Source: Octopus sinensis
Taxonomy: Eukaryota
Assembly (NCBI RefSeq): GCF_006345805.1
Contig: NC_043008.1
Coordinates: 46,066,001 to 46,130,000 of the forward strand
Direction of reading: 5' to 3'
DNA: 64,000 nt
The position numbers and the translations under genes are program-made. A model generated the notes under the pieces. The model saw nothing but the letters and a program-made list of their open reading frames with translations. It was not told where the DNA came from and did no database searches. Positions 13,530-64,000 of the stretch are shown one piece after another (the first letter of the stretch is position 1; each line of letters begins with the position of its first letter).

Positions 13530-14150
13530 TAGTTTTTGTTCAGAATGAGATAAAAAACAAGGCTGAGAAGATTTTAGAACCTTTATAAATAGAAGGTCTT
13601 ATAGCTGTTTCCAGGATATTTATTATATTCCTTCATCGGAGACGATGTGAGAAAATGGTTAAGCAAAATTTAATTTAGATAAGATACGAAATAGAGAATG
13701 AAGTGGAGGAATGAAAATAGATGTGAGATATGCAGGGATATTGCATTTGTAGATCCACTATTTAGGCAGAATGGTATACATATAAGGTTCCAGTACCTTG
13801 TGAATAAATTCCAATAGTATTAAAAACTGGTCATTCCAAGTGCACATTGCTATTGTATCAAGGGTTTTATTTAAATCGTCTTGTGAGTGGATTTGGTAGG
13901 CTGAAACTGAAAGAAGCCCGTCGTAATATGTGTGTACACATGTGTGTGTGTGTGTGTGTGTATTTATTTAATTATAAGTGTGACTATGTTTGTGTCCTTT
14001 AAATAAAACCCTTGATTCAATATCACTGTGTACAAACTCTATACTTGGAACCACAGCCTTGGTTTTTTTTTATCTCATTCTGAAAAAAAAATGTTCATAT
14101 ATCCACATGCTGATATATGGACCTACGTTGGAATCCTCATTCCCATAATC
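13530..14150. mobile_element. Fold-back non-autonomous PLE-like element with a decayed hammerhead in the left arm
   Basis: TTCAGAATGAGATAAAAAACAAGGCTG (~13539-13565) is inverse to CAGCCTTGG...TATCTCATTCTGAA (~14054-14084). TCAAGGGTTTTATTTAAA (~13857-13875) is inverse to TTTAAATAAAACCCTTGA (~13998-14016). Begins next to a TA tract. Confidence 0.6.
13596..13643 (-). ncRNA. Decayed type I hammerhead ribozyme
   Basis: Minus strand: gtct-CCGATGA-agga...tcctg-GAAAC-agct-ATA-agac. Stem I gtct/agac and palindromic loop III are present; two core substitutions (CUGA to CCGA, GUA to AUA). Confidence 0.65.
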
Positions 14151-14254
14151 ACCGAAACAAGAGCTTAACTATTGTCTATCCATAGCACTTACTCAGCATT
14201 ACCTGACACCTTTCGGTCTCACTGACACCATTACCTCCTGTAACCTCTCTCTCT

Positions 14255-14830
14255 CTCGGTATAGACTCGTACAAAGTTTGAATTGTTTCCAAAGGAACGT
14301 TTGTCCATTCTTCATCTAAAACAGTCTCCAGTTCTTGTATTGATGATGGTGGAGGATATCGGCTCCTTACTTCTTTTTCTAAAATGCACCATAAACGTTC
14401 AATGATATTGATATCTGGGGACTGTGGTGGCCAGATAAGATGTTCAGATTCACTAGAATGTTCCTCGTGGCATTCAGTAACAACTTTAGCTGTGTGAATT
14501 GGTGCATTATCATCTTGAAAGATTTACGTTTCACTCCGGAAGCAGTTCCGCAACCATAGGCTAAATTTAATCAGATAAAATGCTTAGTCTTGCCTATCAA
14601 TTCGGCCATGAAGGGAAACCATTCGGCCGGTGGATTTCCAAGATATAGGCGCCCAGATCATCACAGATCCTCTTCCGTGTTTCACAGTTGGAAGAAGGCT
14701 GTCTTGGTCAAATGCTTCTTTTGGCTGTCTCCGCATGTATACTCGGCCAGTGATCGGAAATAAAGTAAAGGATGACTTGTCCGAGAAAATAACATTCTTC
14801 CGCTGCTCTAGGGACCAATTCTGTAGGTTA
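14255..14830 (-). mobile_element. Tc1 (DD34E) transposase relic
   Basis: VIFSDKSSF, PTVKHGRGSVMIW, then after a frameshift QDDNAPIHTA, WPPQSPDINIIERLW and LDEEW. Confidence 0.92.
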
Positions 14831-14939
14831 TCAGACAGTGTGGTGCTCAAGGAGCTGCCTTCCAAGTCTTATGATGTTATCAGCCTCAAATATGCACACC
14901 TGGCCAAGGGATGCACTTCGACAATTCGTGGTTAAAAGA

Positions 14940-15335
14940 TGTGACCAAATGGATATGATGCGACATTCAAAGGTATTTTGGATCAATGTGAAGCCCCTGC
15001 CACCTTGTTTTCGTTTTAGGTACAGGCGGTCTATGTCACTGTTTATGTGGAAATTATGTGTGCTTGTTAGAATTTTCGGGTTTTCATATCAATGGCTCGG
15101 ATCTCATTAAGCGTCCGATCAAGCAACTCAGTTGCTGGTATGAGCACTGGCACTGCAAACACATTGAGAGTCCTGAGGTCCAAATTTTCTTTATTTGGCT
15201 GTAATATTCTTTAGTGACTCGTCTTTTGTTACAGGCGCCATTCTAAGATATATTTTCATCCACCCCCTAGATACCTGTAACATTCCTCGTCAGATACATG
15301 GGAAGCAGTCAAATCATTGATGGAGATGTTACTAG
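14940..15335 (-). mobile_element. R4/Dong-like LINE RT-thumb fragment
   Basis: YRYLG, then FHINSDIDRLYLKRKQGGRG on the minus strand. Confidence 0.7.
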
Positions 15336-17492
15336 TCTGGTTTATGTATGTATGTATGTATGTATGTATGCATGCATGCATGCATGTATGTATGTATGGA
15401 TGGATGGCTGGATGGATGCATGCATGCATGTATGCATATGTGTATATATATGTATGCATATGTGTATACATATATGTATGCATATGTGTATCACATATGT
15501 GTGTGTCTATATACGTGTGTCTACGTGTGCGTGTATAAAGCATTTTATTTCACGTATGCCACTGAAAACTCTATTTTATTCCCGATTCCATTGTTTGTAA
15601 AGACTAGGGGCTTTCTTCAATATCTTAATATTAGACAACTGCCCCTTTGTCTGATATTAGCAAGAGAAATGTCCAAAGGCCAAAGAATGTCTCATCTCTT
15701 GCGCAAAGGGGTTTTACTTGTTATTGTTGTTGCTGTTGTCTCCATCTAAAGCAGCACCGATTAAACAAAGCTGCAATTAATAACGTTCCAAGAGTGACCA
15801 TCTCTTCTTTTTGTGTTTACGACACCATTCGGCCAGATACCTATTTCCTTTCATTTCGGTACAAGGTTGTGATTTCAAGGCATTTGGGTTCTTACATCTT
15901 TGCCTACCATTACTTCCAGTCTTTTACTGATGACGTCACATTTCATTCAGCAATCAGGAAGCACTGTGGATAGAGTGACTGTAGCAAGTTCGCTAATAGG
16001 GGGCGCTTCTGTGCGCTGAGGTTTCTATTACATTTTGCTATTAATATAGTTGGTATGACTAATCTTATTTTAGGTAATGTATATGAGATAGGTGTGTTAT
16101 CGACTGATACTTTACTATCCGCCTCTCTCTCTCTGTGTATACGCACCTGCCTGTGTGTTTGTGTGCCTGTCTGCCTGCTTCTGTGTGTGCATGTGTGCGC
16201 ATGCGTGTGTGTATGCGATGGTGTGTGTGTTGCAGTCGCATCTTTCCGCACATGCAGGTTCTACATGGGAACAACTATGCTACCTGAATATTAATTGCTT
16301 CTCATTCCAGCTTTCCGTCTTCTTATTTTATTTATCATTTCTTTTTTTTTTTGTTTGTTCTTGCTCTTCTATCTCCATTACAACTTCGTTGGTTTATTTT
16401 GAGTTTCAGATAAAGAATTGATATTTAATGTTTCGTTTGTGTGTTATTAGAGTATGTTTAGGTATAATACAAGTTGTGCTGTGCTTGATGAGTTTTTGAT
16501 GGAGCCTTCACACATTTCGCCGTCACAAGTGTTTAGGTCACATGGCCTATACGTGTGTTTCTTTATTTTATTTTGTCATAGGTTGCATTATTCTTGGTGC
16601 TGGGGTTTAGCCCTAGGTAAGTCCTTATCGAGTTGACTTAGAATCAAAGCAATGGTTACCCTGGAAATGACAGGACATCCAGAACCAAATTATCCAATAC
16701 CGTCTTTCTCCAAGAAGATGGTTGCACTTTAAACCACATATCGCAGTTGTTTCTAGCAGGTTGACCACCCACGTATTTGCTCCATCGGTGTTGGGTCTTA
16801 TATTTTGGGTCATATCACGATGAATTCGTAATATTGTTAGAGATTCTGACAAAATAATTTGTTGTACTTACTACTGTTATTCCGAGTCCACATCCTTCCA
16901 ATAGTAATGCAATCAAATTTACATATCCCTTAAGCCTCGGGACTTGTTTTAGGAATCCAAAGTTTACTTTTTTGTATTTCAGCGAATTATCGTGTTGGGT
17001 CAGGTACTTTTGTTTAACATTTGACATTTAATTACTTCAGTATCGCTAATTCTTCAGCTCTGCTTATATCAAAAGAATGTACAACCATCGGACACCTATT
17101 GAGTTTGAAATCATCGAGGAATGTCGAAGCGAAACGATTCAGCAATTATGAGTTTTACTGGTTTTAAGAAGACATTCGATAATCGTTCACCGAGGAAAAG
17201 GCATCGATATTCTGCGAATGAGTGTAAGCTTTCATCAGGCCACACGAAAACGTCACCTTGCATAACAGGTCATGCACATCGACAGACTGGTAGGTGATTT
17301 CAGAAATCTCAGCTCCTGGACCTCTTTCACATTGAGGGAAAATATCAAGGCCAAGTCTCGGCAGCATGATTTAGCGCGACTTGTCGTCTTTCCCATCAGA
17401 TTTGCTTGATATATAAATGAGAAACATGGACATTAAACTCTATCCGGAAAAATCTCTAGAGGTATGTTAAAGTATGTTCTCCGTATTACCTA

Positions 17493-63267: not shown

Positions 63268-63520
63268 TGTGGAGGCGCAATGGCCCAGTGGTTAGAGCAG
63301 CGGACTCGCAGTTGTAGGATAGCAGTTTCGATTCCCAGACCGAGCGTTGTGAGTGTTTATTGAGCGAGAAAACCTAGAGCTCACTCTTTCTTTTGTAGGC
63401 ATGCTCGCTTAGCCAGCGAAGTGGCGTCATTTGAAGGCTAAAACAATGCGAAGCGCATTGTGACCAGCGATGTGTAGCAACATCTGATAGCCTGGTCGGT
63501 CACGGCGATCACGGTGATAT
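63268..63520 (+). mobile_element. tRNA-derived SINE family D
   Basis: TGTGGAGGCGCAATGGCCCAGTGGTTAGAGC...TTTCGATTCCC head followed by a non-tRNA body. Confidence 0.8.
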
Positions 63521-63556
63521 ATATGTGTGTATGTATGTATGTATATATATATATAT

Positions 63557-63765
63557 ATTTCTTTATTGCCCAAAAGGGGCTAAACATAGAGGGGACAAAT
63601 AGGGACAGACAAAGGGATTAAGTCGATTACATCGACCCCAGTGTGAAGTTGGTACTTTATCTATGGACCCCGAAAGGATGAATTTGAACTCAGAACGTAA
63701 CGATAGACGAAATACCGCTTAGCATTTCGCCCGGCGCGCGAACGCTTCTGCCAGCTCGCCGCCTT
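63557..63765 (-). mobile_element. SINE family B in a (TA)n tract
   Basis: TTTCTTTATTGCCC tail ... TTCTGCCAGCTCGCCGCCTT head. Confidence 0.85.
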
Positions 63766-63941
63766 CGTACATATATATATATATATATAATATATATATG
63801 ATATATATATATATATATATATATATATATAATATATATATATATATATATATATATATATAATATATATATATATAATATATATTATATATATATATAT
63901 ATATATATATATATATATATATATATATATATATATATATA

Positions 63942-64000
63942 TCTTTCCCCTGTCTTCCCTTCTCGGGATCTTTCCTTCTCCTATGTTTCCGACGAAGAGC
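63942..64000 (+). mobile_element. Start of another TA-flanked hammerhead-type element, cut by the window end
   Basis: ...TGTTT-CCGACGA-AGAGC matches the layout of the 26873 and 59370 copies. Confidence 0.4.

What the first reader, a model, noticed from the sequence alone, without database searches (positions are those of the whole stretch)
13530..64000. Swarm of small hammerhead-bearing non-coding elements living in (TA)n microsatellites
Seen: ten hammerhead motifs (13596, 21435, 22041, 26873, 55573, 59370, 59814, 61197, 61516, 61567) plus a truncated one at 63989, in at least six unrelated sequence contexts, nearly all bounded by TA tracts. Three have palindromic loop-III tetramers (AATT, AGCT, GTAC). 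Known: PLEs and non-LTR retrozymes carry type I hammerheads with very short stem III that cleave as dimers. Inference: a diverse ecosystem of non-autonomous ribozyme retroelements mobilised by TA-targeting PLEs, which may be poorly annotated in this lineage.
Basis: partly seen in the sequence, partly recalled or inferred. Interest (0 to 1): 0.75.

Follow-up and report, generated by a model that had tools for sequence, protein, structure and literature searches.

The report
Hammerhead-tipped stubs of Penelope retrotransposons
Most of these self-cutting-RNA motifs are the tail ends of ordinary Penelope-type jumping genes pasted into TA repeats, and the one surprise is that in four families many of the short copies stop at one fixed spot just ahead of the ribozyme region, which likely marks where a short template RNA begins.

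Summary
Ten of the eleven motifs belong to genome-wide repeat families. Six window copies keep a complete type I hammerhead fold, four are decayed, and 22041 is single-copy and unsupported. Insertion into (TA)n is real (29 of 30 sampled family A ends; background 5-6%). They are mostly not independent non-coding elements. Families A (61516/61567), B (59814/61197), C (21435) and G (59370) continue into protein-coding Penelope-like elements, and the window's own C copy carries endonuclease-coding sequence. H has a coding relative; no ORF was found for E/E2. Only F (55573; 586-nt tandem unit) fits a non-LTR retrozyme. The layout (head-to-head arms, one-sided tail) is the published Penelope footprint. 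One feature stands out: 5' ends pile up at a fixed point upstream of the hammerhead core (A 11 of 27, B 21 of 30, E 12 of 30, G 10 of 19), whereas ORF-attached A copies pass that point (1 of 21 stop; p=0.006). This suggests two template pools: short linear RNA and continuous (circular or multimeric) RNA. Cleavage and RNA ends are untested. This scan noted retrozymes in this genome before, and a similar hotspot in another genome.

The parts
13530..14255 (.). Family H insertion: head-to-head arms; minus arm ends in TA at 13530, plus arm carries the tail; interrupted by another repeat; right end approximate
   Evidence: a 76%-identical relative ends a Hydra-like coding PLE in L187
13596..13643 (-). 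H hammerhead (core CCGAUGA, loop III AGCU); window copy has a C.A mismatch in helix III, consensus intact
19861..21556 (+). Family C: 5'-truncated Hydra-type PLE (AAT-rich linker, GIY-YIG, 3' UTR, hammerhead), preceded by a short inverted tail piece (19861 to about 19950); TA tracts on both sides
20443..20826 (+). GIY-YIG endonuclease-coding sequence, one in-frame stop
   Evidence: 90.6% identical to the L187 domain, which passes Pfam PF01541 cut-off
21436..21526 (+). C hammerhead: canonical core, long helix II, loop III AAUU, predicted cut after GUA
22038..22085 (+). Site D: core boxes and helices II/III but no helix I; single copy; chance match or very old relic
26778..26965 (-). Family E stub in TA; minimal hammerhead at 26873-26909 decayed in this copy
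55378..56050 (-). Family F: non-coding 586-nt unit plus partial second unit (retrozyme-like); hammerhead 55573-55664, loop III GUAC, one helix I mismatch
59300..59493 (+). Family G stub in TA; hammerhead 59367-59404 broken in this copy; family consensus core CUGUUGA (A6U)
59790..61333 (.). Family B: 1.5-kb head-to-head insertion of the microsatellite-rich 3' UTR of a Hydra-type PLE; hammerheads at 59814-59863 (minus, intact) and 61197-61247 (plus, core changed to CUGUAGA); tail on the right arm only
61483..61708 (.). Family A: 226-bp palindromic stub, two hammerheads head-to-head (cores 61549 minus, 61571 plus), about 70-bp tail on the right arm, TA on both sides
63943..64000 (+). Family E2 stub, continues past the window end; complete minimal hammerhead (core CCGACGA at 63989), ends in TA

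Best explanation
Ten of the eleven motifs sit at the 3' ends of dispersed repeats; four families continue into protein-coding Penelope-like retrotransposons, one is a non-coding 586-nt tandem unit, and all were likely pasted into (TA)n by Penelope-type reverse transcriptase/GIY-YIG proteins. Mechanism, inferred from PMC11167929 plus the footprint here: the endonuclease nicks both strands of a TA tract; reverse transcription starts inside the RNA at two fixed sites downstream of the hammerhead (site 1, and site 2 about 70 nt further on, which gives the one-sided tail); the two cDNAs stop early and are joined head-to-head through short homologies, leaving stubs that keep the hammerhead because it lies just inside the start sites. 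The hammerhead is carried along and is probably not needed for insertion. Shown: 5' ends pile up at one spot per family (A -4 to -17, B 0 to -6, E -60 to -78, G -65 to -80 relative to the core). Inferred, about 45% likely: the pile-up is run-off from a short linear RNA whose 5' end lies at the foot of the folded hammerhead domain (a start site or a trimmed end), while long multi-unit copies come from a continuous template (circle or multimer).
For: Parents: A, a pLTR-ORF-pLTR copy with 3,345-bp spacing (L224) and a 723-aa open frame (L225) with RWK, DKT, CxCx5C, CxxC and CxH motifs (read; Hydra definition). C, endonuclease then 3' UTR, hammerhead, tail and next ORF start in L187, 95.8% identical to window 20601-21555. 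B, ORF end then about 2.3 kb TG/TA-rich UTR then B in L191; the spacer is shared by 4 of 7 further B loci compared. G, GIY-YIG sequence continuous with G in 2 of 20 loci. Two 3' ends and head-to-head arms in A, B, C, F. TA: 29 of 30. Copy numbers, exact 33-34-mers with 0 control hits: A core 2,572, B 1,629, C 106, H 82, E 44, F 18. Hotspot: A counts 2,989 (+34..+67), 2,572 (+1..+34), 880 (-66..-33); 11 of 27 arms reaching -4 stop by -17 and 0 of 30 stop at -18..-39; 23 of 25 TA-flanked ends among the 28 loci shown lie at -12..-17; B 21 of 30 at 0..-6, none at 7..93; E 12 of 30 at -60..-78. ORF-attached A copies: 1 of 21 stop there (Fisher p=0.006).
Against: No ORF was found for E, E2 or F, and for H only through a 76% relative, so up to four families could be non-autonomous. 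The B link passes through low-complexity sequence with inserted repeats. No tree was built, so clade names rest on motifs. The hotspot samples are 30 arms each, the first hits by genome position, and both arms of some insertions are counted. Micro-palindromes (CTAG, GC, AGCT) and TA homology sharpen the peaks. No extra G marks the 5' ends (G in 0 of 20 E, 1 of 95 E2, 2 of 7 A), so a capped start is not supported. B has no initiator-like motif at its hotspot. The 880 count may be low because of subfamily variants. The 5' ends of C and H near the hammerhead were not mapped.
Confidence: 0.85

Rival explanations
1. One reading: each short unit is its own non-autonomous ribozyme retroelement, transcribed from its own copies and mobilised in trans, like a SINE. 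It may hold for F and for the roughly 200-bp E, E2 and G stubs, which start at an initiator-like CA and contain hammerhead and RT start site.
For: F is a 586-nt tandem unit with longest ATG frame 34 aa and no linked PLE ORF in 43 loci examined. 29 of 29 best E matches start within -59..-80 (selected by similarity to the window copy). E, E2, G and A ends fall on YCAKTY-like sequence (Drosophila Inr TCAKTY, PMC6483594 passages). 266 tight A palindromes.
Against: A, B, C and G have coding parents. In an unbiased E sample 10 of 30 run 238 nt or more upstream. A junctions vary from copy to copy, as expected if made anew. In the anole PLE the RNA needs sequence downstream of the RT start sites (PMC11167929), which stubs lack.
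Confidence: 0.3
2. The 5' pile-up is not an RNA end: reverse transcriptase stalls, or the cDNA folds back or is trimmed, at the foot of hammerhead helix I, and junction micro-homology does the rest.
For: The hotspot edge matches the 5' strand of the extended helix I in A (-17) and of helix I in B (-6); E and G edges also border predicted paired regions. Junctions use CTAG, GC and AGCT palindromes. No cap-G.
Against: ORF-attached A arms cross the same sequence and rarely stop (1 of 21 against 11 of 27). Solo TA-flanked ends peak at the same place without a partner arm. The DNA hairpin is predicted weak (-4 to -6 kcal/mol).
Confidence: 0.3
3. LTR-like strong-stop and strand transfer: all copies come from one linear mRNA that starts in the 5' pLTR; RT starts near its 5' end, runs off, and jumps to the 3' repeat; stubs are failed jumps.
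For: Both start sites lie between hammerhead and ORF start in L224; an internal pLTR promoter is known for D. virilis Penelope (PMC2377424 passages).
Against: A second arrival at the RNA 5' end should fail as often as the first; it does not (1 of 21), and 10 of 30 ORF-attached copies run on about 1,000 nt or more into a further unit.
Confidence: 0.1
4. The motifs are chance matches in AT-rich repetitive DNA.
For: True for 22045 as far as tested (single copy, no helix I). No Rfam match.
Against: 6-7 hits against shuffle mean 0.15, max 2; all seven consensuses fold with unrelated helix sequences.
Confidence: 0.03

Closest known systems
Hydra-clade EN+ Penelope-like elements (Craig et al. 2021, PMC8557442; section on Hydra read whole, other passages)
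   Same: Single ORF with RWK, DKT, CxCx5C linker, C-terminal GIY-YIG without CCHH, hammerhead in the pLTR, (TA)n targets, inverted 5'-truncated arm, tail at one end (families A, C; B in part).
   Different: Unit 3.3 kb (paper: generally under 3 kb); tail about 70 nt (paper: 30-40); thousands of copies; B has a 2.3-kb microsatellite-like 3' UTR; a fixed 5'-end hotspot is not described in the passages read. The paper's supplements, not read, may list these families.
[quoted passage not shown]
   Same: Type I, unpaired base after A9, short or absent palindromic helix III (C, E, E2, F, G, H); mostly solo motifs ascribed to truncated PLEs; opposite-strand pairs 100-700 bp apart already reported.
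   Different: A and B have a mismatch at the base of a 2-3 bp helix II and a longer helix III; cores CCGANGA (E, E2, H) and CUGUUGA (G consensus); pairs here as close as a few bases.
Poseidon PLE of Anolis in vitro (Frangieh et al. 2024, PMC11167929; parts 1-2 of 4 read)
   Same: Two internal RT start sites defining the tail, nicks on both strands, AT-rich target, hammerhead cleavage not needed for insertion.
   Different: Different clade; start sites here lie before the ORF start; 5' ends of cDNAs were not the subject.
Metazoan non-LTR retrozymes (PMC7229834 passages; bioRxiv 10.64898/2026.07.22.740005 parts 1-3 of 5 read)
   Same: Family F: non-coding tandem unit, GC 0.38, type I hammerhead per unit; proposed PLE mobilisation.
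   Different: F unit is 586 nt, mostly 1-2 units per locus, with PLE-type two 3' ends and inversions; circular RNA not tested. The other families are not tandem non-coding units.

Membership tests
Type I hammerhead ribozyme | CUGANGA, GAAA and UH core in type I order | tested here: met
   Met exactly in A, B, C, F consensus; U4C in E, E2, H; A6U in G; broken in window copies 26903, 59373, 61203
Type I hammerhead ribozyme | Helices I-III can pair | tested here: met
   7 of 7 consensuses; sampled copies passing: A 30/30, B 29/30, C 26/30, E 17/30, F 23/25, G 5/20, H 13/20; not met for 22045
Type I hammerhead ribozyme | Compensatory changes within a family | tested here: inconclusive
   Sampled copies are too alike; pairing is kept only across families
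Type I hammerhead ribozyme | Site-specific self-cleavage | not testable with these tools
   Needs in vitro assay
Type I hammerhead ribozyme | Match to an Rfam hammerhead model | tested here: not met
   0 matches at gathering score in 8 loci; none in the 150 of 230 rows shown for the window
EN+ Penelope-like element | Single ORF with RT and C-terminal GIY-YIG | tested here: met
   A, C, B; G endonuclease part only; not found for E, E2, F
EN+ Penelope-like element | Partial tandem (pLTR), inverted 5'-truncated arm, one-sided tail | tested here: met
Hydra clade | RWK, DKT, CxCx5C, CxxC and CxH around E/N, no CCHH | tested here: met
   All in the A ORF (read); C has RW, NKT, CxCx5C, CxxC; B parent has YxCx5C, CxxC, CxH
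Hydra clade | Insertion into (TA)n | tested here: met
   29 of 30 for A
Hydra clade | Placement in the clade by RT phylogeny | not tested
   No reference sequences at hand
Neptune clade (parent of G) | CX2-5CxxC linker before GIY-YIG | tested here: inconclusive
   Present in the L193 ORF, to which the G-linked fragments are 72-75% identical; the fragments themselves do not reach the linker
Non-LTR retrozyme (F) | Non-coding tandem unit with one type I hammerhead each | tested here: met
   586-nt spacing at several loci, longest ATG frame 34 aa
Non-LTR retrozyme (F) | Expressed as circular RNA | not testable with these tools
   No reads for F were laid
Non-LTR retrozyme (A, B, C, G) | No coding capacity in the full unit | tested here: not met
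   Coding parents found
Type-SGC permuted hammerhead (PMC10085705 passages) | Non-circular block order | tested here: not met
   All consensuses fold in ordinary type I order

The most novel reading that the evidence does not exclude
Penelope-like elements use two templates. An uncut linear RNA that begins at the foot of the hammerhead domain is copied from its internal start sites to its 5' end and yields the 90-230-bp stubs and palindromes; a hammerhead-processed, unit-length circle (or multimer) has no such end and yields the long, more-than-unit copies that can transpose again. The ribozyme would then be the switch between dead-end stubs and productive copies, and the stubs a genomic record of the RNA's 5' end. 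I found no such account in literature searches.
Probability: 0.3. Interest if true: 0.68.

Novelty: new member of a known kind. Interest (0 to 1): 0.38.

Why it matters
As annotation, it corrects the picture: a dense field of short hammerhead repeats is mostly debris of several young, coding PLE families (at least one with an open 723-aa frame), which Rfam does not detect. The role of the hammerhead in PLEs and how tandem pLTR structures arise are stated as open in PMC8557442 and PMC11167929. Family A offers thousands of near-identical insertions, an intact protein and a sharp, falsifiable prediction about where its RNA begins, so it is a convenient system to test linear against circular templates.

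Tried and rejected
Fixed-junction, self-copying double-hammerhead MITE (my first reading of 61483-61708, from the 40 best hits): rejected; that sample was biased by the palindromic query, and unbiased hits show variable junctions, solo arms and a coding parent. B as a degenerate motif: my error from too short a helix III limit; corrected. Cap-G signature: not found. Ends at the predicted cut site: 7 of 42 TA-flanked loci, against 11 of 42 at another AT homology point, so no special enrichment. 3' splice-acceptor-like sequence lies at the A, E and G hotspots but the offsets differ (+3, -3, -2 to -6), so not favoured. Expression: no RNA holder listed on record; only contigs of guessed type could be laid, which cannot show ends, strand or level. 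A Pfam accession I recalled was not in the library. PDB search with the A ORF: 0 matches. Free alignment of the ten motifs was uninformative. Non-circular (SGC) order: not needed. 5'-end mapping of the unbiased C and H samples (L397-L456) was not done, so whether those families share the hotspot is open.
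Full report
Setting. The window is G000:C12:46066001-46130000 of a 2.72-Gb animal genome, 36% GC and rich in microsatellites. Its repeats look octopod to me (recalled, not tested). Positions written with + or - below count from the first base of the hammerhead core.

Observation. All eleven coordinates carry hammerhead-like sequence. A strict descriptor passed only 21442 (100 local dinucleotide shuffles: mean 0.01-0.02). A relaxed one passed 3-4 sites (60 shuffles: mean 0.23-0.37, max 2). 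A refined one, tuned on these sites, passed 6, or 7 with A6U allowed (100 shuffles: mean 0.14-0.16, max 2). Own-genome searches put ten sites in eight repeat families: A (61549/61571; 447 candidates), B (59857/61203; 358), C (21442; 1,759), E (26903; 4,000), F (55658; 1,414), G (59373; 2,974), H (13639; 4,003), with 40 scored in each, and E2 (63989; seen in flanks, and completed). Site 22045 has one candidate, itself, and no helix I. The seven consensuses built all fold as type I hammerheads with unrelated helix sequences; the window copies at 13639, 26903, 59373 and 61203 are decayed. Rfam detects none. For A, 29 of 30 3' ends run into (TA)3+ against 5.0-6.1% background.

What the elements are. 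Family C in the window spans 19861-21556: a short inverted tail piece, an AAT-rich coding linker, a GIY-YIG domain (20443-20826, 90.6% identical to L187; the L187 domain passes PF01541), 3' UTR and hammerhead. In L187 the same sequence continues through the tail into the next ORF start. Family A has 2,572 exact core matches (control 0); L224 holds pLTR-ORF-pLTR with 3,345-bp spacing and L225 a 723-aa open frame with the RWK, DKT, CxCx5C, CxxC and CxH motifs that define the Hydra clade (PMC8557442). The 226-bp palindrome is two short arms of this element joined head-to-head; at least 266 such tight palindromes exist, with varied junctions. Family B follows a Hydra-like ORF in L191 after about 2.3 kb of TG/TA-rich UTR, a spacer shared by 4 of 7 further loci compared; the window copy is a 1.5-kb head-to-head pair with the tail on one arm. 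Family G is continuous with GIY-YIG sequence in 2 of 20 loci, 72-75% identical to an ORF with a Neptune-type linker. A 76% relative of H ends another Hydra-like ORF. E has long C/A-rich upstream sequence in 10 of 30 unbiased copies but no linked ORF was found. F is a 586-nt unit, GC 0.38, longest ATG frame 34 aa, in partial tandems, with no linked ORF in 43 loci; the PLE matches near two of those insertions are separate neighbours.

How it most likely works. Shown in the sequence: two fixed 3' ends per family, TA targets, head-to-head arms, a tail on one arm, partial tandems. Established elsewhere: the anole PLE protein nicks both strands of AT-rich DNA, starts reverse transcription at two internal sites that define the tail, and does not need hammerhead cleavage to insert (PMC11167929); PLE hammerheads sit in pLTRs, occur mostly as solo motifs of truncated copies and sometimes as opposite-strand pairs (PMC4209133). 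Inferred: each insertion is one or two cDNAs primed on opposite strands of a TA tract and joined at their truncated ends; the hammerhead survives in even the shortest copies because it lies just inside the start sites.

The 5'-end hotspot. Exact 34-mer counts along A fall from 2,989 (+34..+67) to 2,572 (+1..+34) to 880 (-66..-33). In 30 arms anchored at the 3' segment, 3 end inside the ribozyme, 11 at -4..-17, none at -18..-39, 16 further up; a core-anchored, overlapping sample gave 15 of 30 at 0..-20. Among the 28 loci in the 100 rows shown, 3 were long copies and 23 of the other 25 end at -12..-17. B: 21 of 30 at 0..-6, none at 7..93. E: 12 of 30 at -60..-78, 2 at -92/-94, 6 shorter, 10 much longer. 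G: 10 of 19 at -65..-80 in a similarity-selected sample. Of 50 exact tail-to-ORF junctions, 30 were examined: 21 reach -4 and only 1 stops by -20 (Fisher p=0.006 against 11 of 27). So the site does not stop cDNAs that arrive after a full round, which argues against a plain stall and against a strong-stop-and-jump scheme, and for a separate short template. What makes its 5' end is open. A, E, E2 and G ends lie on YCAKTY-like sequence (Inr TCAKTY per PMC6483594; an internal pLTR promoter is known in D. virilis, PMC2377424), but B has no such motif, no cap-derived G is seen, and the edges also match the 5' foot of predicted helices. Micro-homology sharpens all peaks, samples are small and arms of one insertion are not independent. 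C and H were not mapped near the hammerhead; their similarity-selected samples and that of F show no peak in the range they could test.

Comparison with what is known. The elements work like, and by motifs belong to, EN+ PLEs (Hydra for A, C, probably B and H; Neptune-like for G); F fits the non-LTR retrozymes (PMC7229834 passages; bioRxiv 10.64898/2026.07.22.740005), whose PLE origin is already proposed. Literature searches gave no paper on these families or on a 5'-end hotspot at the hammerhead; supplements were not read and most subscription papers are not in the library. Earlier AI notes report retrozymes with this footprint elsewhere in this genome and stubs ending just before the ribozyme in another genome; none matched the A palindrome or this place. 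These are leads, not support.

Verdict. Real hammerheads and real TA targeting, but mostly stubs of coding PLEs: new members of a known kind. Interest 0.38, carried by the testable two-template idea.

Noticed in passing
window 9235-10112: Broken non-LTR reverse transcriptase fragment (RVT_1 E 2.4e-6, below cut-off)
   Followed up: partly
window 35883-36401: ORF resembling the C-terminal part of an RTE-type LINE (recalled resemblance; no Pfam hit)
   Followed up: partly
window 46031-46506: 182-bp unit in 2.6 tandem copies of a SINE-like repeat common in this genome
   Followed up: no
L192:687-1376 and 2121-2600 (just past the window end): Tc1/mariner-like transposase fragment and a PLE reverse transcriptase 94.6% identical to the L189 ORF
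   Followed up: no
L158:1940 and 2291 (minus strand): A further hammerhead family in a 351-bp tandem, core and helix II intact
   Followed up: no
L042:1377 / L193:5062-5068: A B arm joined head-to-head, without TA, to a 5'-truncated Neptune-like PLE of another clade; possible template switch between unrelated PLE RNAs or a nested insertion
   Followed up: partly
window 59373 (G consensus) and 61203: A6U core: consensus in a family of thousands of candidates (G), and arisen separately in one B copy; G relatives also show CUGUAGA and CUGUCGA
   Followed up: partly
window 61644-61669 and 61271-61290: A and B tails both hold a small hairpin with similar arms between the two RT start sites; candidate protein-binding or start signal
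   Followed up: no
L191:1081-3404; window 60065-60995: The 3' UTR of the B parent is itself 2.3 kb of TG/TA-like sequence, so this element spreads microsatellite-like DNA that may seed its own targets
   Followed up: partly
window 19968-20400; L187:6950-7100: Two different Hydra-like ORFs carry long (AAT)n runs in the RT-endonuclease linker
   Followed up: no
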